Positions 3,614 to 37,328 of a DNA stretch of 64,000 bases are shown here, piece by piece. The DNA is taken from NCBI GenBank assembly GCA_963665325.3, contig OZ224045.1, positions 416,001 to 480,000 on the forward strand. The letters run 5' to 3'. The notes below the pieces were generated by a model. It saw only the letters and a program-made list of their open reading frames with translations. It searched no databases and was not told where the DNA came from. This DNA comes from Alphaproteobacteria bacterium (GTDB lineage Bacteria > Pseudomonadota > Alphaproteobacteria > Bin95). Every line of letters begins with the position of its first letter. Position 1 is the stretch's first letter. A program made the translations under genes and the position numbers.

Positions 3614-4654
3614 CTACCGGTTCAGCCGGGCGGCCTCTCCGATGATGCGGACGGCTTCCTCGCTGCGGGTCCGCACGGTGATGGCTGTCGCGCCGCTGTC
3701 GGCCCAGGCGCGGAAGCGCTGCTTGATGCGCGCCGGCGGGCCGATGAGCGCTTTCATGTCCACCCATTCGTCCGGCACGGCATCTGCGGCCTCGTCCTTG
3801 CGGCCGGCGAGATAAAGTTCCTGGATGCGATCCGCCGCGTCCTCGAAGCCCCGGCGGCACATCATCTGGTTGTGGAAGTTCTTGTCCCGGTGGCCCATGC
3901 CGCCGACATAGAGCGCCTCGCGCGGCTTAAGCTGCGCCAGGCCGGCCTTCACATCGTCGCCCAGGATGACATGCGGCGAGGCGACGATCTCGAAATTGTG
4001 GAAGCCCTTGCCGTTGCCGGCCCGCGCGAACCCCTGCTCCAGCCAGGGCCGGTATTCGTCGAGCGTGCCGGGCATGAAGCCGAGCGGCAGCCAGCCATCG
4101 GCGATCTCGCCGGTAAGACGCACCGTCGACTCCGCCCCGGTGCCGAGATAGATCGGGATGTCGGGGTTGGGATGCAGGATCATGCGGAGCGGTTTCGCCA
4201 TGCCGGCGGAGCCTTCGCCTTCATAGGGCAGCGAGATTTCGCGGCCATCATGCGTCACCGGCTCGTCGCGCGCGAAAATCTTGCGCATGATCGCAACGTA
4301 ATCCTTGATCCGCCAATAGGGCCGGCCCCAGGGCTGGCCGTACCAGCCCTCGACGATCTGCGGCCCCGAAACGCCAATGCCGACGATCATCCGTCCGCCG
4401 CCTGCGAGCGCATCGATGGTCTGCGCCTGCATGGCGGCATTGGCCGGCGTGCGCGCGGCAAGCTGGATGATGCCGGTGCCGAGCTTGATCCGCTCTGTCA
4501 CGGCGGCCAGATAGGCCAGCGGCGTCATCGCGTCCGTGCCGTAAGCCTCCGCCGTCCACACCGTGTCGTAGCCCAGCTTGTCGGCGAGCTTCACCAGTTC
4601 CGTCGGGAAATCGAGACGTGCGCCCGAGTAACCGATCGATAGGCCGAGTTTCAT
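3614..4654 (-). CDS. LLM-class (probably F420-dependent) oxidoreductase
   Basis: MKLGLSIGY, WTAEAYGTDA, ARTPA, GVSGPQIVEGWYG, YVGGMG..KNFHN. Confidence 0.88.
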   Translation of the reverse strand: MKLGLSIGYSGARLDFPTELVKLADKLGYDTVWTAEAYGTDAMTPLAYLAAVTERIKLGTGIIQLAARTPANAAMQAQTIDALAGGGRMIVGIGVSGPQIVEGWYGQPWGRPYWRIKDYVAIMRKIFARDEPVTHDGREISLPYEGEGSAGMAKPLRMILHPNPDIPIYLGTGAESTVRLTGEIADGWLPLGFMPGTLDEYRPWLEQGFARAGNGKGFHNFEIVASPHVILGDDVKAGLAQLKPREALYVGGMGHRDKNFHNQMMCRRGFEDAADRIQELYLAGRKDEAADAVPDEWVDMKALIGPPARIKQRFRAWADSGATAITVRTRSEEAVRIIGEAARLNR

Positions 4655-4718: not shown

Positions 4719-5564
4719 CTACTCTGCCGCCTCCTGCCAGGCCGGCGGCAGGTCGAAGGGACGGTCGCCGGAGAGGGACGGCACGCGGCCGCGTGCTTCC
4801 GCCACGAGGGCCGTGTCGATTTCGGCGGTGACGATGCCCGGCTCCTCGCCGCCATCCGCCAGCACCTCGCCCCAGGGCGCCACGATAAGCGAGTGGCCGT
4901 AGGTGCGCCGGCCCTCGGCATGCTCGCCCACCTGCGCCGGCGCGACGATGAAGCAGCCGGTTTCGATAGCGCGAGAGCGCAACAGCACATGCCAGTGCGC
5001 GCGCCCCGTCGGCACCGTGAAGGCCGACGGCACGGTAATCACCTCGGCCCCGGCTTGTGCGAGCGCGCGGTAGAGCGCCGGAAAGCGCATGTCGTAGCAG
5101 ATCGTGAGGCCCAGTACCGCCAGCGGCGTTCGGGCGGTTACCGCGCTCTCCCCGGGCCGGTAGGTCCGGCTTTCCCGGTAGCGGTCGCCTTCGCCGATAT
5201 CCACGTCGAACATGTGGATCTTGTCATAGGTCGCGGCGACCTCGCCGGCCGGGTCGAGCAGGTATGACCGGTTGGCGAGCCGCTCCTCTTCGGTGCGCGT
5301 CACCATCGAGCCCGCCAGCAGCCAGGCTCCGGTCTCGCACGCCCACTCGCGGAACGCGTCCAGCCCCCGGTGGTCGTCCTGCGACTCCGCTTTCTCCAGC
5401 ACCAGCCGCCGGCGCGGCTCCAGATAGGAGCAAACCTCGGGCGCCGCGATGAACTCCGCGCCCATGTCGCGCGCCCGGCGGACCATGCCGCCAAGCGTTT
5501 CCAAGGTCGGTCCGGTGTCCCGTTCGGCCGTGTTCTGCAGGCAGGCGACCTTGAAGACGCTCAT
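4719..5564 (-). CDS. carbon-nitrogen hydrolase (Nit1-like amidohydrolase)
   Basis: PE, YDKIHMFDV, ICYDMRFP, RSRAIETGC, TYGHS motifs. Confidence 0.93.
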   Translation of the reverse strand: MSVFKVACLQNTAERDTGPTLETLGGMVRRARDMGAEFIAAPEVCSYLEPRRRLVLEKAESQDDHRGLDAFREWACETGAWLLAGSMVTRTEEERLANRSYLLDPAGEVAATYDKIHMFDVDIGEGDRYRESRTYRPGESAVTARTPLAVLGLTICYDMRFPALYRALAQAGAEVITVPSAFTVPTGRAHWHVLLRSRAIETGCFIVAPAQVGEHAEGRRTYGHSLIVAPWGEVLADGGEEPGIVTAEIDTALVAEARGRVPSLSGDRPFDLPPAWQEAAE

Positions 5565-5827
5565 GACGCCTGCCCCTGAAGCATCGGGTCGAGCCGCCCT
5601 GCCCGCTCCAGCGCCGCGAGCTCGTCCGAGCCGCCGACATGCGCGCCGTCGATGAATATCTGCGGCACCGTATGGCGGCCGCCGGCCCGGCGCATCATCT
5701 CGCCGCGCAACGCCGGGTCGCCGTCCACATTGTATTCCGTGAAACCGGCGTCCTTGCTCTTCAGCAACCGCTTGGCGCGGTAGCAGAAGGGGCACCACAT
5801 GCTGGAATAAATCTCTACCCTTGCCAT
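5561..5827 (-). CDS. grxC: glutaredoxin 3
   Basis: CPFC active site, [15 protein letters not shown]; coupled to the nitrilase-family gene. Confidence 0.95.
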
Positions 5828-5934
5828 GGGCCCCACCATATAGCCGCGCCGCCCGGCTCGTCGAGACCTGCGCGCCCTTGACCCTTTGCGCTCCGGTGCG
5901 GATAAACCGCCCGCCGAACGGAGAACCGTCGATC

Positions 5935-6951
5935 ATGAAGCGCATTTTTTCCGGCATTCAGCCGACCGGAAACCTGCATCTGGGAAATTATCTGGGCGCC
6001 ATCCGCAATTGGGTGGATATGCAGCAGGACTTCGACTTCAACTGCATCTTCTGCATCGTCGATCTACACGCGATTACGGTTCCGCAGGACCCGGCCGAGC
6101 TGACCGCCAATACCCGCGAGGTGACTGCGGCCTTTATTGCCTCGGGCATCGACCCCCAGCGCTGCATCGTCTTCAACCAGAGCATGGTGTCTGCCCATGC
6201 CGAGCTTGCCTGGGTACTGAACTGCCACGCGCCGATGGGCTGGCTCAACCGCATGACCCAGTTCAAGGAGAAGGCCGGCAAGCGGCGCGATGCCGCTGCG
6301 GTCGGGTTGTTCGCCTACCCGGTTCTCATGGCCGCCGACATCCTGCTCTATCGCGCGAGCGACGTGCCGGTCGGTGAGGACCAGAAACAGCATCTCGAGC
6401 TTTCCCGCGACATAGCGGGGGCCTTCAACCGCCACTACGACTGCGAAACGTTCGTGCTTCCGGAGCCGCGCATATTCGGCACCGCGACCAGGGTGATGAG
6501 CCTGCGCGACGGCAACGCCAAGATGAGCAAGTCCGATCCCTCGGCCAATTCGCGCATCAACCTTTCGGACGATGCCGACACCATTGCGCAGAAGGTCCGG
6601 CGCGCGAAGACCGATCCCGAGCCGCTGCCGAGCGAACCGGACGGGCTCGAAGGCAGGCCCGAGGCCACGAACCTCGTCGGCATCCATGCCGCGCTTGCGG
6701 GACTGGACGAAGCGGCAGTCTGCCGCGAATTCGGCGGACGCGGCTTCTCCGACTTCAAGGCCGCGCTCTCTGAGCTGGCCGTTGAGGTATTGTCCCCGGT
6801 GACAGCCGAGATGCGCCGGCTTATGGCCGACCCGGCCTATATCGACGGTGTGCTGGCGGACGGGGCATCGCGGGCCGGCGCCATCGCCGGTGAGACGATG
6901 GGCGAAATCAGGGACATTGTCGGCTTCCTGACGCCTCGGCCAAACGCATGA
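5935..6951 (+). CDS. trpS: tryptophan--tRNA ligase
   Basis: [14 protein letters not shown] (HIGH), [15 protein letters not shown]. Confidence 0.98.
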
Positions 6952-28460: not shown

Positions 28461-29347
28461 CCTCTTGGTCTGTCAGCGGCAGTGCCGTGTACATATGTGT
28501 CCTGAGGGCGAGTATGGTAGCGGCGGCGACTGCCTGCAACCTGAACGGTGGCTGGGAATCACGTCGCGCTGCGGAGTGCGGTTGACGATCGAGGCGCATG
28601 GCGGCCTCGCTCGGCATCGGGATGCAAATGCCTCGGATCGGTATCGAATCCGGCATTTCGTGGGAGCCAATTCGCTGCCGGCAGGCGGCCTCTGGATGTT
28701 TGGCGTTTCCGCTACCATGCGCCAGGACCTTCAGACCCAGAATCCGAAGGTCCAAGAACTCGGTGACGGCCCGAGATCGTGACGAACGCCTACGAACAGC
28801 GGTGTTTTCAGCGACTTGCCGATATTGGCGACGAGCGCGGTGGGAACCGCATGGGAATCGCACCGTTTGCAGCGCCGGGCGGTGGTTGGCGGCATCCGGC
28901 CATGGAACGGTCGCAGTTGTGTTGTCGGCGGTGGCCGAGGACCGTCATCGCCGGTCCCCCCCGCGCGGCCGGCTGCGTTCCCACCAAGGCCCGCCGCGGC
29001 CCGTCAGCGCCGACGCACCCGCAGCCACGGCCAGCGGACGCCGCTGACGCCGCCCGCGGCCATCCCGGCGTAGCCGAACAGCGCCTTGACCAGGGTGAAG
29101 GCCGCCGCCAGCGCGGCCGTCTCAAGTCTCCGGCGCTGCAATTCGCACCGGGAACCCCCGGGGCGCAAGATACAAGACCGTGCGCATCCTGCCGGCCTGC
29201 CGGGCGGCGTTCGTGGCGCGCTCCTGCCCGCCAGCCGTCTTTCCGGGCGGCGCCTGCGGATTGAGCGATGTGACGCGGCCGCGCGTTGACCCCGGACCGG
29301 GGGCGGAGCACCATTCGAGTTCGTCGGGATACGCGGAGGAATGGACA

Positions 29348-30295
29348 ATGCGCCCCATGATCGGGTTGTTCGCGATCCTCGTCGCCCTGGCCCTCTCCGG
29401 GTGCGGCGGACACCGGGAGGACATGGCGGCGATGGCCGCCGGATCCGGCGCGGGCGCGGAATCCGGCCCGCCGGACTGGCTGCTGGACGCCGGGACCGCA
29501 TCGGGGAACATTGCCGGAAGCAATGCGTACGCCATGACCTCGGACGAGCTTTCGGCGCTCGACGAGAGGATCGTCACCAGCGCCGACACCTGGATGCTCG
29601 GCGGCGTCTACCGCTCCCCCGGAGAGTTCCCCGGCTACGCCTGGGGGGCGGCGTGCACGGGCGGCGCCTGCAGGTACGGCGCGAGCGGGGAAGGGAACCT
29701 GGACGGTTTCTTTTTCGATGCGGAATACCAGCCGGTCATGGAACGCGGGGGCATCCGGCTCGGCCAGGCCTTCTACGACGCGACATCCAATCCCGACGCT
29801 CCCCAGGAGCTCACCGGCTACGGCGCCTGGATGCATTACAACACCTTTCTCGTGCAGATCAGCTTCCATCCCGACAAGGGCGCACCCGACTCGGTCCAGG
29901 CCGCGCCCTATTCGGTCGGCCGTGCTTCCGGCACGAATCCGGTATCGGGATCGGCGTCGTGGACCGGCGTCGCGGTGGGCACGGACCTGAACCGGCTGTT
30001 TCCCATTCCCGACATGCTGCAGGGGGATGCCGGGATCGTCTACGACTTCGGCGACTCCTCGGTCGATGTCACGCTCGACAATTTCGTCAATCTGAGGACC
30101 GGCGCCGCCGCGGGCCACAGGATGGCGTGGACCGGCGTCGCGGTGAATGACGGGGCGTTCTCGAAGGGCACGCACTGGGACAGCGGGCATGTCGCGGGGA
30201 CGTTCTACGGCGGCTACCACGAGGAGGCCGGCGGCGTGTTCAGGTCGGGGTCGATCGCCGGGTCGTTCGGTGCGTTCCGGTCGGACCGCCAGTGA
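29348..30295 (+). CDS. surface lipoprotein with transferrin-binding-protein-like beta-barrel
   Basis: Lipobox LSGC; SASWTG..VG, GDA...F..SSVDVTL, GTFYG..HEEAGGVF, GSFGA. Confidence 0.75.
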   Translation: MRPMIGLFAILVALALSGCGGHREDMAAMAAGSGAGAESGPPDWLLDAGTASGNIAGSNAYAMTSDELSALDERIVTSADTWMLGGVYRSPGEFPGYAWGAACTGGACRYGASGEGNLDGFFFDAEYQPVMERGGIRLGQAFYDATSNPDAPQELTGYGAWMHYNTFLVQISFHPDKGAPDSVQAAPYSVGRASGTNPVSGSASWTGVAVGTDLNRLFPIPDMLQGDAGIVYDFGDSSVDVTLDNFVNLRTGAAAGHRMAWTGVAVNDGAFSKGTHWDSGHVAGTFYGGYHEEAGGVFRSGSIAGSFGAFRSDRQ

Positions 30296-30700
30296 GTTGA
30301 GCGTGCGCGCGCTCGCCACGCAGGCGACGACGCCACGCGCCGGGTCGCCCATCGCTCCACCGCCGATCGGCCCGAAATCGCCGTTGAAAGCCTGCGCCCT
30401 CTCAAGGCGCTGCACAAGCTCATCCGCGAGGGACGCGTCGAGCGCGTTCCCGAGGGGGGATACCGCATCGCCGCTGCCGTCAATGGCAGGGGCTGCCGGG
30501 AGCCGTTACCGAAAACCGTTACCGCATCGAACCCCTAGGGAGGCAGGGGTAGAGTCGAGGACTGGCGCGCCAGCTTTAGGGTCCGGTGCCTGTTCCGTCG
30601 CTTTCGCTCCGGGCCGCAGTCCGGCTCCCATGACCGCGTTTCCAGTCCCCGCTCATCAAACCGTGCGTGCGATTTTCTCGCACACGGCTTTCGGACGAGA

Positions 30701-31312
30701 TCATGCCTTCGCGCTCGGAAGGCCCATAGCCGTCCGCGTAAGGCGCATGAGGCCGTATTCATCGTGTAGCCTCTCGTCCGGGAAGCGCACGAACGTCCCG
30801 AACTTCACCTTGTGCTTTCGACAGAGCCACCGGCGCAGCCGTTGAACAGCGTGTCGGTTGACCGCGCTATAGGCTGGGCTGACGTGCCCGAGGCTGAAGT
30901 AGTTCGCCCATCCGGTCATTGTCCGGTTCAGACGTTCCACAACCACCTCCGGCGATTGCCAGCAGTGCCGTCGCGTCGTCATTGCGCTGATCCTGCGGCA
31001 GATGCCCCGGACGCTCGCCTTGGTGGGTCGGGTTCCCGTGTAGGAGCCTTTGCCGGTCGGGCGATGGATGCGTCCAATACGGTATCCCAGAAACTCAAAC
31101 GCGTCCTCCGGACACCGCAGGCACCGGGTTTTCCGTTCGTTGATCGGGAGCTTCAAACCAGCCATGAGCCGCTCGACCGCCGCCAGCATGTCCGCCGCCG
31201 GGGCTTTGCCGACCACACAGAGATCGTCAGCGTAGTTCACGATTTCCGAACGGAAGCGCCGGGCAAAGCCCAGCGCCTTCCAGCCCAGCACGAAGCGCCG
31301 CATGTAGAGGTT
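30701..31312 (-). pseudogene. ltrA: group II intron RT/maturase, 3' half
   Basis: NLYMRRF, YADD, FEFLGY, maturase X domain GWANYF; no HNH domain. Confidence 0.92.
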
Positions 31313-31322
31313 ACTGGCCAGT

Positions 31323-31413
31323 GGATATGGGAACCTTATGATTCTGGGAACCTGAGCCGCTGCGGGCGTTGATTATCAAGGGATTGGACGCGACTCAGGT
31401 TCCCATAAGAATG
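31323..31413 (+). repeat. RIT left inverted repeat (91 bp)
   Basis: Exact reverse complement of 34928-35018; internal GGGAACC/GGTTCCC sub-repeats. Confidence 0.95.
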
Positions 31414-31456
31414 TGCTCTTCTCCTGCTGGTTTTGACCCTGGACAGGAGAATCAGC

Positions 31457-33013
31457 ATGCCTTCCATGATCGCCAACGCGGCGTCGCCCGACGCGAGCGG
31501 TGACCCGGACCCGGGCATCGTCGAGGACTACAAGGCACGTTTGCGGGCCCTGGGATATTCCTCCGGCCTGACGGGCAAGTGCATCCGAACGATCCTGCAC
31601 CTCATCGCGTGGCTGTCAGCGAACGGGACCGGGATCGAGACGCTCGACATTCGCGTCCTGCATCGATTCCTGGAGCACGACTGTGCCTGTCCCGGTCCGC
31701 GCGGTTACCGCAAGAACCTCGCACGCGCCCGATGGCATCTGCACCGGTTTCTCGGCTTCCTCATGGAGACGGGACGCGTGCGGATGCCCGCGGAGATCGA
31801 GAGCGGCGGCGGCGTGGTGGAGTCGTTCCTTCAAACGCTCGCGGCACAGGGATATGTGCCCGAGTCGATCGCCGCCTACCGCAAGCGCTGTCGACACTTC
31901 ATCGTCTGGCTCTACCTGCACGATATCGCGCTCGCCGAGGTCGACGACGATGTCTTCTCCCGGTTCCTTGCCCACCACTGCACCTGTACCCACCCCCACT
32001 TCTTCATCAGAACCGGCCGGTTCGCGGGTCGCAACAACAGCCGATCAAAGATCGGGTTGTTCATTGAGTACCTGATCGACATGGGCATCGCCGCGCCGCG
32101 CCCGACGCCGGCGTGCGAGGAACCGGGCCGCCATGTGGCGCGATTCCTAGTCTGGCTGCGACGCTATCGCGGCATCGGGGAGGGGACCATACAGAGCTAC
32201 CACAAGGCCATGCGGGTGCTGCTTCCCCATCTTGGCGACGATCCCGATCGATACCGTGCGACGCTGATCAGGAACACGGTGCAGCACCGCCTTGAGACAG
32301 CGTCGCGCGATCTTGTCCGACGCGAGACGTCGGCGCTTCGGTTGTATCTGCGCTTCCTCGTGCTGGACGGCCTTTGCCGGCCCGGGCTTGTCGGTGCGGT
32401 GCCGACGGTTCCCCTGCAGAGGTTCTCGACATTGCCCCGTCATCTGCCGCGGGACGATATCGAACGCATCATCGCCTCGTGCGACCGGGCGACGCCCATG
32501 GGACTGCGGGACCACGCCATCCTGCTGCTCCTCGCCCGGCTCGCCCTGCGTGCCGGCGACGTCGCCAATCTTCGCTTGAACGATATCGACTGGGACAATG
32601 CGGTCGTTCGGGTCAGCGGCAAATCGCGACGCGCTGCGGTCTTGCCGTTACCGCAGGATGTAGGGGCCGCGGTCAAGGATTACATCCTCCATGCGCGGCC
32701 TGTCGTGGAGGCCGAGAAGGTGTTCCTGCGCATGATGCCGCCGCGCCATCGGTCCCTGGCCAGCGGTGGTGTGTCGGCGGTCGCGCAGGCTGCAATCAAG
32801 CGGTCCGGTGTCGAGGCCGAGGGACTGCCGGCGGGGCATGTCTTCCGGCATTCCGCGGCGACGAACATGCTGCGCGACAACACCCCGCTGGAGGTCATTG
32901 GCACCCTGCTGCGTCATCAATCCACGCAGACAACGGCGATTTATGCGCGGGTCGATGTGCGAATGCTCCGGGAAGTGGCCCAGCCCTGGCCGGTCGCCGG
33001 AGACGAGAGATGA
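31457..33013 (+). CDS. tyrosine recombinase RitA-type
   Basis: LALRAGDV (R), GK, HVFRHS, LRH, T.IYA; repeated N-terminal 'F..H.C.C' modules. Confidence 0.92.
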   Translation: MPSMIANAASPDASGDPDPGIVEDYKARLRALGYSSGLTGKCIRTILHLIAWLSANGTGIETLDIRVLHRFLEHDCACPGPRGYRKNLARARWHLHRFLGFLMETGRVRMPAEIESGGGVVESFLQTLAAQGYVPESIAAYRKRCRHFIVWLYLHDIALAEVDDDVFSRFLAHHCTCTHPHFFIRTGRFAGRNNSRSKIGLFIEYLIDMGIAAPRPTPACEEPGRHVARFLVWLRRYRGIGEGTIQSYHKAMRVLLPHLGDDPDRYRATLIRNTVQHRLETASRDLVRRETSALRLYLRFLVLDGLCRPGLVGAVPTVPLQRFSTLPRHLPRDDIERIIASCDRATPMGLRDHAILLLLARLALRAGDVANLRLNDIDWDNAVVRVSGKSRRAAVLPLPQDVGAAVKDYILHARPVVEAEKVFLRMMPPRHRSLASGGVSAVAQAAIKRSGVEAEGLPAGHVFRHSAATNMLRDNTPLEVIGTLLRHQSTQTTAIYARVDVRMLREVAQPWPVAGDER

Positions 33014-33936
33014 CGCTGGCCGAGCACGTGGAACGCTACGTCACCTTCCGCAGGGCCCTGGGTCATGCCTATGTGGAACCGGCGCGGTGCCTGCACGACT
33101 ACGCGGCCTATGCCGAGGCCCGTGGCGACAGCTTCGTGCGCACCAGCACGGTCTTCGATTGGGCGTCGACGACGCCATCTCCCCGACAGGCGCAAGTCAA
33201 ACTGCGCTACGTGTGCGACCTTGCCAGCGTCCTGCACGCCGACGACGAACGTCACGAGGTGCCGAACCGCGACGCCCTGGGCAAGGCAAGATCGCGGCGG
33301 CCAACGCCTCATCTGCTGTCCCTGACCGAGATCCGGCGGATCATGGATGCGGCGCTGGAGCTGCCGCCGGTCGGTTCGATCACGCCCCTGACGTTCCATT
33401 ACATCCTGGGGCTGATCGCCGCGACCGGCTTGCGGCGCTCGGAAGCGACCGGCCTGCTGCTGACGGACCTGACGGCGGATGGCTTGCTGATCAGGAAGGC
33501 GAAGTTCGGCAAGCGCCGCCTCGTCCCGCTGGAGGGCGGCGTCCATCGGGCCATGGAGGCGTATCTCCGGGAGAGGAAGCGCCGCGGCGGGCCCGACGAC
33601 CACCTGTTCGTGCTCTCGACGGGCCGGCCCATGCATCCGGTCTATCTCGCGACCGTCTTCGTCAAGCTGGCCCGGCGGGTCGGGCTTCGAGCCGGGCCAG
33701 GCGAGCCGGGCCCGCGGCTTCATGACCTTCGACATTCCTTCGCCGTTCGCGCGCTCGAAAACATGCTCTCGACCGAGCGACGGGATGTCGGCCGCCACAT
33801 GCTGACGCTATCGACCTATCTCGGCCATGCCACCACCGCCGACACGTACTGGTACCTCGAAGCGACGCCGGTGTTGCTCAGGCAGGTGTCGCGGGCCACC
33901 GAGAGGCTGCATGAGGGGAGCAGGAACGATGGCTGA
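33010..33936 (+). CDS. tyrosine recombinase RitB-type
   Basis: TGLRRSEA, KFGKRRLVP, HDLRHSFAV, LSTYLGH, TYWYL. Confidence 0.93.
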   Translation: MTLAEHVERYVTFRRALGHAYVEPARCLHDYAAYAEARGDSFVRTSTVFDWASTTPSPRQAQVKLRYVCDLASVLHADDERHEVPNRDALGKARSRRPTPHLLSLTEIRRIMDAALELPPVGSITPLTFHYILGLIAATGLRRSEATGLLLTDLTADGLLIRKAKFGKRRLVPLEGGVHRAMEAYLRERKRRGGPDDHLFVLSTGRPMHPVYLATVFVKLARRVGLRAGPGEPGPRLHDLRHSFAVRALENMLSTERRDVGRHMLTLSTYLGHATTADTYWYLEATPVLLRQVSRATERLHEGSRNDG

Positions 33937-34921
33937 ACTCGCTCCTCCCCTGGCGATGTTCCTGCGGGAGTATCTTCCACGCGACAAGGGCACGAGCCGG
34001 CATACCGTTGAAAGCTATGCCCTGTGCTTCAAGCTGCTGGTTGTCTTCGCGGCGGACAAACATGGCATCCGGCCCTGCACGCTTGAGATCGGTCATCTCG
34101 ACATAGCGACCCTTCTCGAGTTCCTCGAACATCTCGAACGGGATCGGGGAAACGGAGTGCGCACACGCAATGCCCGGCTCGCGGCCATCAAGGCCTTCTT
34201 CCGCTTCCTCGAGTTCCGGCACCCGAGATATCTCGACCTCGCCGCGCAAGTGCGTCAGATCCCGGCGAAAAAGGGCGAGGTGCCCCTCATCGGCTCTCTC
34301 GACCGGGCCGAAACGCGGGCCCTGCTCGACGCGCCGGATCCGGACACGGTGGCGGGAATACGGGACCGCGCGATGCTGTGCCTCACCTACAACGCCGGCC
34401 TGCGGGTCTCGGAACTGGTCGGGCTTGCCCTCGACGATCTGAAGATGCCAGCCCTCGACGAGGTGCACATCATCGGCAAGGGCCGGCGCGAGCGCATCCT
34501 GCCGCTGTGGAAGGAAACCTGCAGGGCCCTACGGGACTGGTTGGCTCTCCGGCCGGAGAGTGCCGACCGCCATCTCTTCCTCAACGCCATGGGCACCGGC
34601 ATGACCCGGCGCGGCTTCGCCAAACGGCTTGTCCTCCATGCGCAAACCGCTGCGCGCAGCGTGCCGTCGATCACCAACAAGACCGTATCCCCCCACCTGC
34701 TGCGTCACGCTTGCGCGATCCACACGCTCGAGGCGACCGGTGACGTCAGGAAGGTCTCGCTCTGGCTCGGGCATGCAAGCCTTCAGACCACCGAGATGTA
34801 TCTGCAGGCCGATCCGACCGACAAGCTCGATACGCTCGATAAGTGGCGCCCTCCCAGCCTCAAGAAAGGAAAGTTCAAGGGCGTGAAGGACGAATTGCTC
34901 GCGATGCTCGCAGGCACCTGA
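33929..34921 (+). CDS. tyrosine recombinase RitC-type
   Basis: TRNARLAAI, GLRVSEL, GKGRRER, SPHLLRH, WLGHAS..TT..Y. Confidence 0.93.
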   Translation: MAELAPPLAMFLREYLPRDKGTSRHTVESYALCFKLLVVFAADKHGIRPCTLEIGHLDIATLLEFLEHLERDRGNGVRTRNARLAAIKAFFRFLEFRHPRYLDLAAQVRQIPAKKGEVPLIGSLDRAETRALLDAPDPDTVAGIRDRAMLCLTYNAGLRVSELVGLALDDLKMPALDEVHIIGKGRRERILPLWKETCRALRDWLALRPESADRHLFLNAMGTGMTRRGFAKRLVLHAQTAARSVPSITNKTVSPHLLRHACAIHTLEATGDVRKVSLWLGHASLQTTEMYLQADPTDKLDTLDKWRPPSLKKGKFKGVKDELLAMLAGT

Positions 34922-34927
34922 ACCCGC

Positions 34928-35018
34928 CATTCTTATGGGAACCTGAGTCGCGTCCAATCCCTTGATAATCAACGCCCGCAGCGGCTCAGGTTCCCAGAAT
35001 CATAAGGTTCCCATATCC
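34928..35018 (-). repeat. RIT right inverted repeat (91 bp)
   Basis: Exact reverse complement of 31323-31413. Confidence 0.95.
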
Positions 35019-35036
35019 GCTGTTATCGGAACCTTC

Positions 35037-35765
35037 CGATAACAGCGGGCTTATCGGCGCCCCTTGCGGGGTTCCTTTCCGCTCCTTGCGCGCCCGGTTC
35101 GTGCGGCGCTTGCCGCCCTTGCCGTCGTCCTCCTCCACCGGCATTTCCAGCCATGCCTTGATGAGCTTGAGCATCCGCCCGTCGCTGATGCGTCGGGCGA
35201 AGCTCTTCAGAAGCTCGGCATGCGGGATTTCGCCGAAGTAGTTGGACAGGTCGCAATCGACCACCTCGTTGTGCCCTCCGTATAGGAGGCGAACGACGCG
35301 CTTCACCGCGTCGTGGGCGCTCCGCTCCGGCCTGTAGGCGTACTGCTCCGGTTGCAGGTCCGCTTCGAATATCGGCTCAAGAACAAGCAGAGCCGATGTC
35401 TGCGCCACCCGGTCCCGTATGCAGGGGATGCCCAAGGGCCGGAACTTGCCGGGCTGTTTCTTCGGGATGAGCACCTGTCGCACCGGCTTCGGTGTGTACG
35501 TCCCATCCCTCAGTTCCCGCGCCAGTTCCCCAAGCCAGCGCCCCACGCCATCCGACTCGATGTCCGCGAAGGTCTCTCCGTCCACCCCGGCGGCCCCGCC
35601 ATTTCGGCGAACTCGCTTCCAGGCTTCCGCGAGAAAGTCCTCGCGCCACACCTTGTCGATCAGCGCGTGGAAGCGCCGGTCGGGTTCTTCCTTAGCTTTC
35701 ACATGTAACACGGTCTGGAGTCGCCGGACCTTGTCTGACCCTGGTAGGCTTTCGCCAGTGGTCAT
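35037..35765 (-). pseudogene. ltrA: group II intron RT/maturase, 5' half
   Basis: AAGVDG, RQVLIPK, RPLGIP.IRDRV.Q, DCDLSNYF, GTPQGAPISPLLS; joins the 3' half in frame once the RIT is removed. Confidence 0.92.
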
Positions 35766-36757
35766 GCCTTTCTCCCTTTCCGCATCGCTCTCGAACCAGG
35801 GCTCCTTCCCTCCACCGGCATTACCCGGCATCCACGGTAATACGAGCCCATCCGCCACCCTGCCGGCCCGGCCTGCCCCTCGCGGGGTTCCGGTTGGTGC
35901 GTGCCACACCACCGACAGGGCTTCCCGTGTTGCTCCCATCCCCCTCTTCCATGCGTGCCGCCGCCACTACCCCGGCGGAACTGCCCGGTGCGCATGTCGC
36001 TCGCTTCCCGGACGGTGGCAGCCTTCCCCAACCGTTAGACGGGTCGGCTTCCGCATCACCCTTTTCGAGGCCTGCTCGGCGTTCACTCGCGTTGCGGCCC
36101 GCATGGTCGCCTGAACCGCCCAAGGCGGTCCTTTGTCGGAGTGCTTCAGACGATGTCGTTACCTCCATCATCCGCTCCGATTGCTACCGGCTGGAGCGAC
36201 AGTTGCCGGGCGGGATTCGCACCCGCTGAGGGATGGTGCCTTTCCACGGCACACTAACGGTAACGGGTAACACGCCCGTCCCAATCCGCGTCAAGCTCTC
36301 GGCCCGTGGCCGGAAGCTTGCTTACAGCCATGGATGCACTTCGTCCGACACTCCCGCCCGGCTTTGCCGTGACCGGCAGTCGATCCCCATCAGATAACGC
36401 GAAACCCGCACCATCAAATACCGTGCGCACGCTCAGCGTCTCCTCATGCAGGACGCGGCGGCCCATGTCCCACGGCCCCGTCCGTGTCATCTGCGCCCTC
36501 TCACCCGGACCGGTCGTGCGTTGAGCGGCGACAATGACGGGGATCGCCATGCGGCGCCGGGGACGGACAGCGGCGCACTCGATGGCTTCCCTTCCGCCCG
36601 CGAGGTTGGTACAAGGCCAATGAAGGATATCGTGCGAGTTCCGGCGGCGCCGCGTTGCGGCATTGTCGGGTTCGCCTTTGACGAGGGTGATTTGGCAATG
36701 ATCGGAATCATGCAGAAGATCGTGGCGGCGCTTGCGTCGGCTGCCGGGAAAATCCGC

Positions 36758-36789
36758 TTGACAAGCCGGTTTGGCGTTCCCGGTATAAT
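36758..36789 (+). promoter_or_regulatory. candidate promoter with perfect TTGACA and TATAAT boxes, 20-bp spacer
   Basis: TTGACA 36758-36763, TATAAT 36784-36789; -35 lies inside the dyad GCTTGACAAGC. Confidence 0.45.
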
Positions 36790-37050
36790 CGCCGGATCGC
36801 CGGATCGCCGGATCGCCGGATCGCCGGATCGCCGGATCGCCGGATCGCCGGATCGCCGGATCGCCGGATCGCCGGATCGCCGGATCGCCGGATCGCCGGA
36901 TCGCCGGATCGCCGGATCGCCGGATCGCCGGATCGCCGGATCGCCGGATCGCCGGATCGCCGGATCGCCGGATCGCCGGATCGCCGGATCGCCGGATCGC
37001 CGGATCGCCGGATCGCCGGATCGCCGGATCGCCGGATCGCCGGATCGCCG
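36788..37050. repeat. perfect 8-bp tandem repeat (GCCGGATC) x ~33
   Basis: 32 full units from 36791 to 37046 plus partial units at both ends. Confidence 0.97.
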
Positions 37051-37062
37051 ACCTGCGTCCGC

Positions 37063-37328
37063 GTGACGGCCATGAGCGCGTTCGCATGGCTGCGCCGGCG
37101 GGGCCGTCCGTCCTCACCGCCTGAGTCTCTCTCCTCCGCCGGACGGCATTCCGCTTCCCGCCGTCCCGCTCCTTCCTCCGACGGTTCCAGTCCCGCATCG
37201 GCGCAGCGCGTCCTTGCCGCGTGTGCGTCCGGCGCCGCCCGCCGCCTGCGGCGCGGCCTGCGCCCCGTCCTTGCCTCCGCGCTGCTTGCCCTTCCCCTGC
37301 TCGCCGGCCTGCCGACCGGGGCGCAGGC
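37063..37328 (+). pseudogene. N-terminus (extended signal peptide) of a secreted host protein cut by prophage insertion
   Basis: ...RRLRRGLRPVLASALLALPLLAGLPTGAQA, ending exactly at the prophage TG terminus. Confidence 0.6.

What the first reader, a model, noticed from the sequence alone, without database searches (positions are those of the whole stretch)
31309..35048. RIT element carries an inverted copy of its own target site: candidate DNA-homology-guided integration
Seen: removing 31313-35036 restores the intron RT frame ISPLLS|NLYM (+ strand GTAGAGGTT|CGATAACAGC; junction ambiguous by ~3 nt). The 18 nt just outside the right 91-bp IR (35019-35036, GCTGTTATCGGAACCTTC) match the reverse complement of that pre-insertion site across BOTH sides of the junction (GCTGTTATCG-g-AACCT). 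This produces a 15-bp-arm hairpin at 35017-35048. The left end has a separate 10-bp palindrome, ACTGGCCAGT (31313-31322). There is no target duplication. Established: RITs are three-tyrosine-recombinase elements whose target choice is poorly understood. Inference: the element end holds a short, exchangeable 'guide' DNA complementary to a highly conserved gene motif (here the RT PQG..SPLL.N segment). That would allow homology-directed, possibly reprogrammable insertion. Alternatively the copy is a footprint of a hairpin or strand-exchange intermediate.
Basis: partly seen in the sequence, partly recalled or inferred. Interest (0 to 1): 0.82.

Follow-up and report, generated by a model that had tools for sequence, protein, structure and literature searches.

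The report
RIT transposon end palindrome explained
The "mirror copy of the target" at one end of this three-recombinase transposon is really the tip of the element's own opposite inverted repeat, left there by an off-centre crossover, so it points to how these poorly understood elements insert and not to a programmable DNA guide.

Summary
The RIT element, its long inverted repeats, the split group II intron RT gene and the 15-bp-arm palindrome at 35017-35048 are all real. ACTGGCCAGT (31313-31322) is native RT sequence: intact 98%-identical homologs read ISPLASNLYM, and one metagenome contig joins 31322 to 35047. With correct borders, the mirror across both sides of the target disappears.

The palindrome is made only of element parts: a 6-bp crossover hexamer, a 10-nt IR tip, then the tip of the opposite IR. 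Five RIT lineages, down to 35% protein identity, show the same layout, with one palindromic end and one plain end. In three lineages with two copies in one genome, the palindrome sits next to ritA in one copy and next to ritC in the other. The two palindromes are exact reverse complements, including the asymmetric bases.

Best model: the two full IRs abut in a joined (circular) form as a perfect palindrome holding two mirror-image core sites. Integration crosses over in one hexamer, off-centre. Hexamers vary between elements and look like earlier targets, as with Tn916/Tn554 coupling sequences. A programmable DNA guide is not supported. It is a known kind of element, with a testable mechanism.

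The parts
30549..30692 (-). 3' end of the host group II intron (domains V/VI); context only
   Evidence: Rfam RF00029, 45.9 bits
30701..31324 (-).
   Evidence: Pfam GIIM plus RVT_1 end. Intact homologs read ISPLASNLYM. tblastn of P0001/P0002 on G000.
31319..31324 (.). Crossover hexamer at the plain (P) end: CAGTGG on the + strand, CCACTG in RT sense. It is the native form of the target hexamer.
   Evidence: The X16 contig joint 31322->35047 keeps this form. It holds the single mismatch of the 95-nt IR.
31325..31413 (.). Body of the ritA-side inverted repeat (89 nt) with three GGGAAC/GTTCCC motifs
31433..33013 (+). ritA (526 aa from the TTG at 31433; an ATG at 31457 is an alternative start)
   Evidence: Pfam Phage_integrase plus SAM-like domain. 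Aligns to XerD with R, HxxR, H and Y present.
33010..33936 (+). ritB (308 aa)
   Evidence: Pfam Phage_integrase. Aligns to XerC-like 4a8e with R, HxxR and H aligned; the Tyr position is inferred.
33827..34921 (+). ritC (364 aa from the ATG at 33827; the start is uncertain)
   Evidence: Pfam Phage_integrase plus SAM-like domain. Aligns to XerD at E 4e-27.
34928..35016 (.). Body of the ritC-side inverted repeat (89 nt)
35017..35022 (.). Inner hexamer (CCGCTG on the + strand). It is the unused crossover region of the second, intact core site.
   Evidence: Position and variability among relatives
35023..35032 (.). Inner palindrome arm, the tip of the ritC-side IR (TTATCGGAAC)
35033..35042 (.). Outer palindrome arm, the tip of the ritA-side IR displaced to this end (CTTCCGATAA; relatives have G as the first base)
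   Evidence: By analogy with two-copy lineages in which the outer arm carries the SNPs of the opposite IR tip
35043..35048 (.). Crossover hexamer at the palindromic (H) end: CAGCGG on the + strand, CCGCTG in RT sense. It is identical to the inner hexamer, so it is the element-type form.
35049..35765 (-). N-terminal part of the intron RT, ending ...PQGAPIS-P
   Evidence: Pfam RVT_1. tblastn of P0002 residues 1-244 on G000:C1 451765-451034.
36087..36228 (-). 5' part of the host group II intron (domains I-IV); context only
   Evidence: Rfam RF02003, 94.1 bits

Best explanation
This is an ordinary RIT (recombinase-in-trio) transposon inserted into the RT gene of a group II intron, right after the Ser-Pro codons of the conserved SPxxxN motif.

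Each full terminal inverted repeat is about 105 nt long. It consists of an 89-nt body, a 6-bp hexamer and a 10-nt tip (TTATCGGAAC type). In the form that inserts, the two ends are joined. This is most likely a circle.

The two IRs then abut tip to tip and form a perfect palindrome. This palindrome holds two mirror-image core sites. Each core site is a pair of inverted ~10-bp arms of the TTATSGGAAC type around a 6-bp spacer, the classic layout of a tyrosine-recombinase site.

Integration crosses over in one of the two hexamers, 10 nt off the centre. One end of the integrated element therefore keeps a whole IR plus the tip of the other IR. That is the palindromic H end, here at 35017-35048. The other end lacks its tip. 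That is the plain P end, here at 31319.

Because the junction is symmetric, either core can be used, so the element enters in either orientation. The palindrome nevertheless always lands on the same side of the target.

The hexamer is the exchanged region. After insertion, one junction carries the element's hexamer and the other carries the target's. The unused inner hexamer preserves the sequence of an earlier target. These behave like the coupling sequences of Tn916 and the 6-bp carry-over of Tn554 and SE elements.

SHOWN: the anatomy, the displacement of the IR tip, both orientations, the variability of the hexamer, and the empty site.
INFERRED: the circle, the 6-bp staggered exchange, and which protein binds which arm.
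For: (1) True empty site. Intact RTs that are 98% identical read ISPLASNLYM. P0001 is an intact RT 99.5% and 97.6% identical to the two halves. An X16 contig joins 31322 to 35047.

(2) Same layout in close relatives. One search lists 11 distinct H ends with this IR type. Of these, 8 lie in RT genes at ...PQGxxxSP, 2 lie in an IS transposase gene, and 1 belongs to a mini-element. L102 adds a ninth RT case. All carry the same 20-nt core followed by a hexamer and the IR body. The 5 RT P ends read P-x-L-(A/S)-N straight after the IR body.

(3) Orientation. Among RT insertions, the H end lies next to ritC in 4 (window, L113, L102, L131). It lies next to ritA in 4 (L107, L132/L149, L175, L122/L189). 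It is always on the upstream side of the RT.

(4) Displaced tip, tested in lineages with two copies per genome.
- Own genome, contig C2: two 100% identical 3398-nt copies have the H end at opposite sides, and the two 30-nt palindromes are exact reverse complements including one asymmetric base.
- G016: two 100% identical 3713-nt copies give the same result.
- L105 versus L109: centre CA versus TG.
- In the JAJ-type element, the two differing IR ends E1 and E2 of L106 each appear once as a P end and once as the inner arm of an H end.

(5) Hexamers. The inner hexamers of RT-targeting elements differ between elements. The six seen are CCGCTG, CCCACT, CCTACA, CCCTGT, CCTCTC and CCAATT. All read as Pro-X codons like the targets. 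In the JAJ-type element, both the first and the sixth base of the hexamer follow the target, while the bases on either side do not.

(6) Distant lineages show the same layout.
- Own C2 RIT, 35% protein identity, inserted in IS66 transposase genes.
- A Sphingopyxis plasmid RIT with a 90-nt IR, a perfect 19+19 palindrome at one end, and hexamers GAATAC and GAATAT.
- A metagenomic RIT lineage with the same 20-nt core.

(7) All three Rit proteins align to Xer recombinases with catalytic residues in place.
Against: No circle junction was seen. None of the 80 metagenome loci listed (of 115 found) has IR bodies on both sides of the palindrome. Only assembled contigs, not raw reads, could be laid. Nielsen et al. 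2017 also failed to find RIT circle junctions by read mapping (passages read).

The 6-bp stagger is bounded on both sides only in the JAJ-type element. There, the pairing of ends is my inference, because the contigs break inside the element.

In most complete cases a blunt junction at the hexamer border would fit as well.

The window's element is single-copy in its genome. The displacement of the tip is therefore inferred for it by analogy.

One locus, L122, has H-type ends on both sides. This needs an extra rearrangement.

What makes the element pick its targets is not explained.
Confidence: 0.75

Rival explanations
1. The 18 nt outside the IR are a DNA guide copied from, or complementary to, both sides of the target. 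They direct homology-guided insertion and could be swapped to retarget the element.
For: A palindrome including the flank exists. The hexamer part does vary between elements. It is often identical or near-identical to the target hexamer: 5 of 6 in the window, 5 of 6 in G016, 6 of 6 in L105/L109.
Against: The reconstruction behind it was wrong.

The 10-nt arm is constant across unrelated targets. It does not match their downstream flanks: 0 of 6 for TTATCG in the window, and the IS transposase targets share 2-3 of its 10 bases.

The outer arm tracks the SNPs of the opposite IR, not the target.

Insertions occur with hexamer identity of 2 of 6 (C2 copy B) and 3 of 6 (L113/L099).
Confidence: 0.04
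2. Weaker form of the guide idea. Only the 6-bp hexamer matters. It is inherited from the last target and, through the overlap-homology preference usual for tyrosine recombinases, biases the next insertion towards sites with a similar hexamer. This is compatible with the best explanation as an added feature.
For: Inner hexamers look like RT Pro-X codons. In the JAJ-type element, each of the two different hexamers sits next to a target with the identical hexamer. Where both are known, identity is mostly 4-6 of 6.
Against: The targets are homologous conserved codons, so similarity is expected without any guiding. Identities of 2 of 6 and 3 of 6 are tolerated.
Confidence: 0.2
3. The palindrome is a repair footprint of a hairpin intermediate. 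The mirrored bases would be P-nucleotide-like copies of the flank made when a hairpin on the target end is opened off-centre.
For: The outermost 6 nt of the palindrome are shared with the flank.
Against: The arms next to the centre are element sequence, identical in unrelated targets. The palindrome is read in reverse complement when the element is flipped. Flank-derived copies would differ with every target.
Confidence: 0.02
4. Assembly or fold-back artefact at the right junction.
For: None beyond the general risk at palindromes. Raw reads of the window's own assembly could not be examined.
Against: The same structure recurs in independent assemblies. These include complete chromosomes, metagenome contigs and a finished plasmid of a cultured strain.
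Confidence: 0.01

Closest known systems
RIT (recombinase in trio) elements (Van Houdt et al. 2009/2012; Ricker et al. 2013)
   Same: The ritA-ritB-ritC trio, flanking inverted repeats, insertion into genes of other mobile elements, and multiple identical copies per genome. Van Houdt 2012 (section 11 read) already noted variable ends and a palindromic sequence overlapping the inverted repeat next to ritC.
   Different: Nothing places this element outside the family. What appears to be new is the reading of the ends. Idola et al. 2023 (passages) list RIT movement and target specificity as not tested. I could not read Ricker 2013 (not held), and it may already describe the ends.
Tn916/Tn1545 coupling sequences, and the 6-bp carry-over of Tn554 and of SE elements
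   Same: Tyrosine-recombinase transposons with no true target duplication. About 6 bp at the junction are exchanged and can be carried from the old site to the new one. Strict homology is not needed. Tn554/SE is from passages of Idola 2023; the Tn916 details are recalled.
   Different: Those elements have no long terminal inverted repeats. They have no palindromic joint with two mirror-image cores. They are not described as inserting in both orientations through a symmetric joint. They use one or two recombinases plus accessory proteins, not three.
Xer/dif-type and Cre/loxP-type core sites
   Same: Two inverted ~10-11-bp arms around a 6-8-bp spacer (recalled for Xer and Cre). RitA, RitB and RitC are Xer-like by sequence. 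Smyshlyaev 2021 places them among simple Xer-related recombinases (passages).
   Different: Here two such cores share the centre of a 52-bp palindrome. The partner site in the target resembles the core only weakly.
Integron attC and CTX-phage folded hairpin substrates
   Same: A tyrosine recombinase and a DNA palindrome able to fold, -17 kcal/mol here.
   Different: Nothing here calls for a single-stranded folded substrate. The palindrome is explained by two abutting inverted repeats. Its position depends on the side of the target, not on the strand of the element.

Membership tests
RIT element | Three adjacent, same-strand tyrosine recombinase genes (ritA, ritB, ritC) with short overlaps | tested here: met
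   Pfam Phage_integrase in all three ORFs. ritA and ritB overlap by 4 nt (33010-33013). The ritB/ritC overlap depends on the ritC start chosen: up to 110 nt with the ATG at 33827.
RIT element | Catalytic R...HxxR...H...Y in each of the three proteins | tested here: met
   Alignments to XerD (1a0p) and XerC-like (4a8e) show R, HxxR and H aligned in all three. Tyr is aligned in RitA and RitC. In RitB a Tyr lies in the matching C-terminal stretch.
RIT element | RitA with two successive core-binding domains and RitC with an extra C-terminal helix (Smyshlyaev 2021, passages) | tested here: inconclusive
   RitA has 526 aa with one Pfam SAM-like domain at 236-310 and an unassigned 235-aa N-terminus. 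No structure was predicted.
RIT element | Flanking inverted repeats | tested here: met
   95 nt, 99% complementary. By my reading the repeat is 105 nt to the palindrome centre.
Coupling-sequence type tyrosine transposition (Tn916/Tn554/SE-like) | About 6 bp at the junctions are exchanged, or carried over from the previous site, and no true target duplication is made | tested here: met
   Comparative only. Hexamers differ between otherwise near-identical ends and read like target codons. The window has CAGTGG and CAGCGG at its two junctions.
Coupling-sequence type tyrosine transposition (Tn916/Tn554/SE-like) | Circular (joined-end) intermediate | not testable with these tools
   Only Logan contigs were available. 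No junction contig occurs among the 80 loci listed of 115.
DNA-homology-guided (programmable) integration | The end sequence co-varies with, and mirrors, the target on both sides of the insertion point | tested here: not met
   The arm is constant in RT and IS transposase targets. The outer arm follows the opposite IR tip. The window's mirror vanishes with the true empty site.
Group II intron (host of the insertion) | Ribozyme domains plus an RT/maturase ORF in domain IV | tested here: met
   Rfam RF02003 at 36087-36228 and RF00029 at 30549-30692, both minus strand. RVT_1 and GIIM.

The most novel reading that the evidence does not exclude
The 6-bp crossover hexamer is a heritable, self-updating target memory. 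Each transposition stores the hexamer of the site just left in the element's second core. Through overlap homology this biases the next insertion to the same conserved codons of other mobile elements' genes (RT Ser-Pro-X, IS66 DNN-x-AER, IS5/IS1182-like transposase). RIT lineages would thus stay locked on other mobile elements as hyperparasites, and changing six bases would shift their target preference.
Probability: 0.2. Interest if true: 0.7.

Novelty: new member of a known kind. Interest (0 to 1): 0.45.

Why it matters
RITs are common. RitC-like genes occur in 582 of 72,556 plasmid records at E <= 1e-30. Yet in the papers I could read, their movement has never been reproduced, and their target choice is listed as untested (Idola 2023, passages; Van Houdt 2012, section 11).

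The comparative data here give exact element borders. They also give a candidate 26-bp core site (arm, hexamer, arm), the predicted joined-end junction, and the rule that the palindrome marks one side of the target. Each of these can be tested directly with PCR and plasmid assays.

The data also show several RIT lineages living inside conserved catalytic-motif codons of other mobile elements: a group II intron RT and IS transposases. That is a tidy case of one mobile element parasitising another.

For the scan itself, the exciting reading, a programmable DNA guide, is set aside.

Tried and rejected
1. A second copy of this RIT in the window's own genome. Only one copy exists, so borders could not be set by copy comparison there.

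2. An intact copy of the host intron in the own genome or in 36 genomes of the order. None was found with the protein query. There was only a broken relative in G001, whose contig starts 32 nt before the match.

3. A circle junction. None of the 80 listed metagenome loci (115 found) has IR bodies on both sides of the palindrome. Read laying offered only Logan contigs, which cannot show rare forms. Gaps in their cover are not used as evidence.

4. A shared DNA signal in targets beyond the coding motif. I saw CARGG 11 nt upstream of the hexamer in RT targets and in one IS target. In the RTs this is the PQG codons, and the IS sites are two paralogs. I draw no conclusion.

5. Similarity of target arms to element arms. 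It is good in L098 (10 of 13 with one gap, by eye) but poor in the window and in the IS targets. It is not a general rule.

6. Plasmid hits H5 and H6 are rearranged RITs with other IS elements inside. They were not used.

7. In the Sphingopyxis locus, a first short-word BLAST of the wrong stretches found no IR. The repeat finder then found it further out.

8. Pfam on the two large ORFs beside the intron (28808-30415 and 36254-37198, minus strand) gave nothing. The 140-aa piece of the G016 target gene also gave nothing.

9. Ricker et al. 2013 is not held. For it I saw nothing but reference-list entries. Supplementary tables of Van Houdt 2012 (RIT lists) were not opened. Both may bear on what is already described about RIT ends.

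PAPERS SEEN.
- PMC3414803: passages and section 11 in full.
- PMC10214605, PMC5737581, PMC8138268 and bioRxiv 10.1101/2024.06.12.598671: passages only.
- PMC5385486: a reference-list hit only.
- The claim that the mechanism is not in print rests on searches of the held library only.

Full report
WHAT IS IN THE WINDOW

Between 31319 and 35048 lies a three-gene tyrosine-recombinase element. Its genes are ritA (31433-33013), ritB (33010-33936) and ritC (33827-34921). All three match Pfam Phage_integrase. All three align to Xer recombinases with the catalytic R, HxxR, H and Y in place.

The element interrupts the RT/maturase gene of a group II intron on the minus strand. RVT_1 lies in the upstream ORF; the end of RVT_1 plus GIIM lie in the downstream ORF. 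The intron's ribozyme parts lie at 36087-36228 and 30549-30692.

The repeat finder gives inverted arms 31319-31413 and 34928-35022, 95 nt and 99% complementary. It also gives a palindrome with 15-nt arms at 35017-35031 and 35034-35048. As single-stranded DNA the palindrome folds at -17.1 kcal/mol, z = -5.2 against shuffles.

THE EMPTY SITE WAS MIS-RECONSTRUCTED

However, the minus-strand frame continues open from the downstream RT part through ACTGGCCAGT and reads P-L-A-S-N-L-Y-M.

A protein search with that part returned 120 listed full-length RTs. The six closest (P0002-P0007, 446 aa, 98% identical) read PQGAPISPLASNLYMR. Among the 98 of the 120 in which my pattern found the motif, 41 read ISPLASNLYMR and 15 read ISPLLSNLYMR.

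P0001 is an intact 408-aa RT that is 99.5% and 97.6% identical to the two halves. An uninterrupted allele therefore exists in something very close to this genome.

I laid Logan contigs of four runs on 31000-35400.
- One X16 contig joins 31322 to 35047, skipping 3724 nt with a 2-nt ambiguity.
- Other contigs join 31318 to 35044 with one letter between (X1), and 31320 to 35053 with eight letters between (X15, X16).
- These are contigs from mixed samples. They show that intact relatives exist, not how frequent they are.

The insert is therefore 3724 nt, at 31325-35048 or equally at 31319-35042. It is bounded by an imperfect 6-bp direct repeat: CAGTGG at 31319-31324 and CAGCGG at 35043-35048. ACTGGCCAGT is RT sequence.

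Against this true site the mirror shrinks to the hexamer and an out-of-register AACCT.

WHAT THE PALINDROME IS MADE OF

Read in RT sense, the right junction has these parts in order:
- the upstream RT flank;
- the hexamer CCGCTG;
- TTATCGGAAG, then GTTCCGATAA;
- the hexamer CAGCGG;
- the IR body, starting ATATGGGAACC.

The left junction has the IR body, then the hexamer (CCACTG in RT sense), then the downstream RT.

A scan of one genome per species for a 24-nt IR pattern gave 16 stretches. A metagenome scan for the palindrome core gave 115 stretches, of which 80 were listed. I put every end in register.

Every related element has one palindromic end (H). Reading inward it consists of flank, hexamer, a 20-nt core (TTATCGGAAC followed by GTTCCGATAA), hexamer and IR body. 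Every related element also has one plain end (P), which consists of IR body, hexamer and flank.

One search lists 11 distinct H ends.
- 8 lie in RT genes, always after ...PQGxxxSP. L102, is a ninth.
- 2 lie in a DUF772/DDE_Tnp_1 transposase gene.
- 1 belongs to a 600-bp mini-element.

The 5 RT P ends all continue P-x-L-(A/S)-N. The 10-nt arms are thus the same in unrelated targets. Only the hexamers differ.

THE OUTER ARM IS THE TIP OF THE OTHER INVERTED REPEAT

tblastn with the three Rit proteins places the H end next to ritC in 4 RT insertions: the window, L113, L102 and L131. It places the H end next to ritA in 4 others: L107, L132/L149, L175 and L122/L189. In all of them the H end is on the upstream side of the RT.

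Three lineages with two copies in one genome allow a sharper test.
- Own-genome contig C2 carries two 100% identical 3398-nt copies of a distant RIT (about 35% protein identity). They lie in IS66-family transposase genes at the DNN|xAER motif. Copy A has its H end at the ritC side and copy B at the ritA side. Their 30-nt palindromes are exact reverse complements of each other, including the one asymmetric base.
- G016 has two 100% identical 3713-nt copies with the same behaviour.
- L105 and L109, from one chromosome, differ in the centre dinucleotide, CA versus TG, as expected for one junction read on either strand.

In the 88%-identical JAJ-type element the two IR ends differ. They are E1 and E2, as seen on the collapsed contig L106. 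Each of them occurs once as a P end and once as the inner arm of an H end. The pairing of those ends is my inference, because the contigs stop inside the element.

The simplest account is a form in which both full IRs are joined tip to tip and are then opened 10 nt off-centre, on either side.

THE HEXAMER

Inner hexamers of the RT-targeting elements differ between elements. The six seen are CCGCTG, CCCACT, CCTACA, CCCTGT, CCTCTC and CCAATT. All read as Pro-X, like the target position. SPC also occurs among the RTs.

In the JAJ-type element the first and sixth bases of the hexamer follow the target, while the neighbouring bases do not. This bounds the exchanged stretch at 6 bp.

In complete elements the H hexamer equals the inner one and the P hexamer is the target's. 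This holds for the window, L113/L099, both C2 copies and both G016 copies. L102 may show the converse.

Both patterns are expected if cuts 6 bp apart leave a mismatched joint that replication resolves, as described for Tn916. Idola 2023 describes a 6-bp carry-over for Tn554 and SE elements (passages). A blunt junction with pick-up of six target bases at excision would fit most cases too.

Identity between the element and target hexamers ranges from 2 of 6 (C2 copy B) to 6 of 6.

CORE-SITE READING

Around each hexamer the arms are inverted copies of one motif: GTTCCCATAT and TTATCGGAAC in the window's family. This gives arm, 6-bp spacer, arm, the usual layout of a tyrosine-recombinase core (recalled for Xer and Cre). 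The joined form would hold two such cores back to back. The IR body holds three more copies of the motif, possibly accessory sites. Which Rit protein binds which arm is not known.

GENERALITY, AND THE LOOSE ENDS

The layout recurs in further lineages.
- A Sphingopyxis macrogoltabida plasmid RIT carries an extra ORF and sits in a strawberry-notch-like gene. It has a 90-nt IR, a perfect 19+19 palindrome at one end, and hexamers GAATAC and GAATAT.
- A metagenomic RIT lineage of 25-35% protein identity shares the 20-nt core. Only its H ends were looked at.

Several results do not fit cleanly.
- L122 has H-type ends with RT 5' parts on both sides. I take this as a rearrangement between two copies.
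- G001 keeps only the last 184 nt of a RIT, with the inner arm deleted.
- No joined-end junction was found. Nielsen 2017 did not find one by read mapping either.
- In G016 the target ORF enters from the P side. The upstream-side rule therefore holds within a lineage, not across all of them.

WHAT IS KNOWN

Van Houdt 2012 (section 11) noted variable ends and a 28-29-bp inverted repeat with an overlapping palindrome next to ritA and ritC, and found this hard to reconcile with usual sites. Idola 2023 states that RIT transposition has not been reproduced and lists target specificity and movement as not tested. Four searches of the held library found no paper that explains the ends. Ricker 2013 could not be read.

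VERDICT

The feature is real and explained. It is the displaced tip of the element's own inverted repeat plus a 6-bp crossover region. It is not an inverted copy of the target and not a programmable guide.

The element is a new member of a known kind. The by-product is a concrete, testable model of RIT insertion, together with the finding that several RIT lineages sit in conserved codons of other mobile elements' genes. This gives the finding moderate interest.

Noticed in passing
window 30405-30549 and 36255-36348; G000 contigs C1-C5: The group II intron sits in an 81-83% diverged relative of the end of a mobile element at least 3.4 kb long. That element is present in about 24 copies, nearly all 100% identical, across all five contigs of the genome. 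The two large ORFs beside the intron have no Pfam match.
   Followed up: partly
G000:C2 about 130450-133890 (+) and 138490-141890 (-): Two 100% identical copies of a distant RIT (about 35% protein identity to the window's) lie in inverted orientation about 4.6 kb apart. Each lies in an IS66-family transposase gene at the DNN|xAER motif.
   Followed up: yes
L122:600-830 and 4290-4480: A RIT with palindromic ends on both sides, each abutting the 5' part of a different RT gene. One of the two lacks the inner hexamer and has a TTACCGGAAC variant arm. It looks like an inversion or exchange between two inserted copies.
   Followed up: no
L103:2227-2900: A miniature derivative of about 600 bp, made of two IRs around the last 137 codons of ritC, with the TTATGATTATGGGAACC motif tandemly triplicated at one end.
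   Followed up: no
L054/L112 (G001:C49) and L230 (G001:C97): A RIT remnant in an RT gene. Only the last 184 nt remain. The flank TTATCG is joined directly to the GAACC motif of the IR body, as if the palindrome's inner arm and hexamer had been deleted between two motif copies.
   Followed up: partly
L118, L119, L148; L129, L133, L162, L166, L170, L181: The same 18-20-nt palindrome core occurs in other metagenomes next to a conserved ...GCTTGCC flank. In some it is followed by a divergent RIT with ATCGGAAC motifs. In others it is followed by a different sequence starting TAGCGAATTA, possibly another element type using the same core.
   Followed up: partly
window 35032-35033; L132/L149: The centre of the palindrome is GG in target-sense reading, instead of the CG seen in relatives. 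This holds in both the window and L132/L149, although the palindromic end is at the ritC side in one and at the ritA side in the other. The variant base is therefore on the outer arm in both. It may be chance.
   Followed up: no
L233 (Sphingopyxis macrogoltabida plasmid), 5513-6817: This RIT carries a 434-aa hypothetical ORF between ritC and the right IR, so RITs can hold cargo. It interrupts a strawberry-notch-like helicase gene.
   Followed up: partly
runs X1-X12: Most runs sharing words with the stretch are labelled sponge or coral-reef metagenomes. Laid contigs show many related introns at 90-99% identity. No habitat claim is made from these small shares.
   Followed up: no
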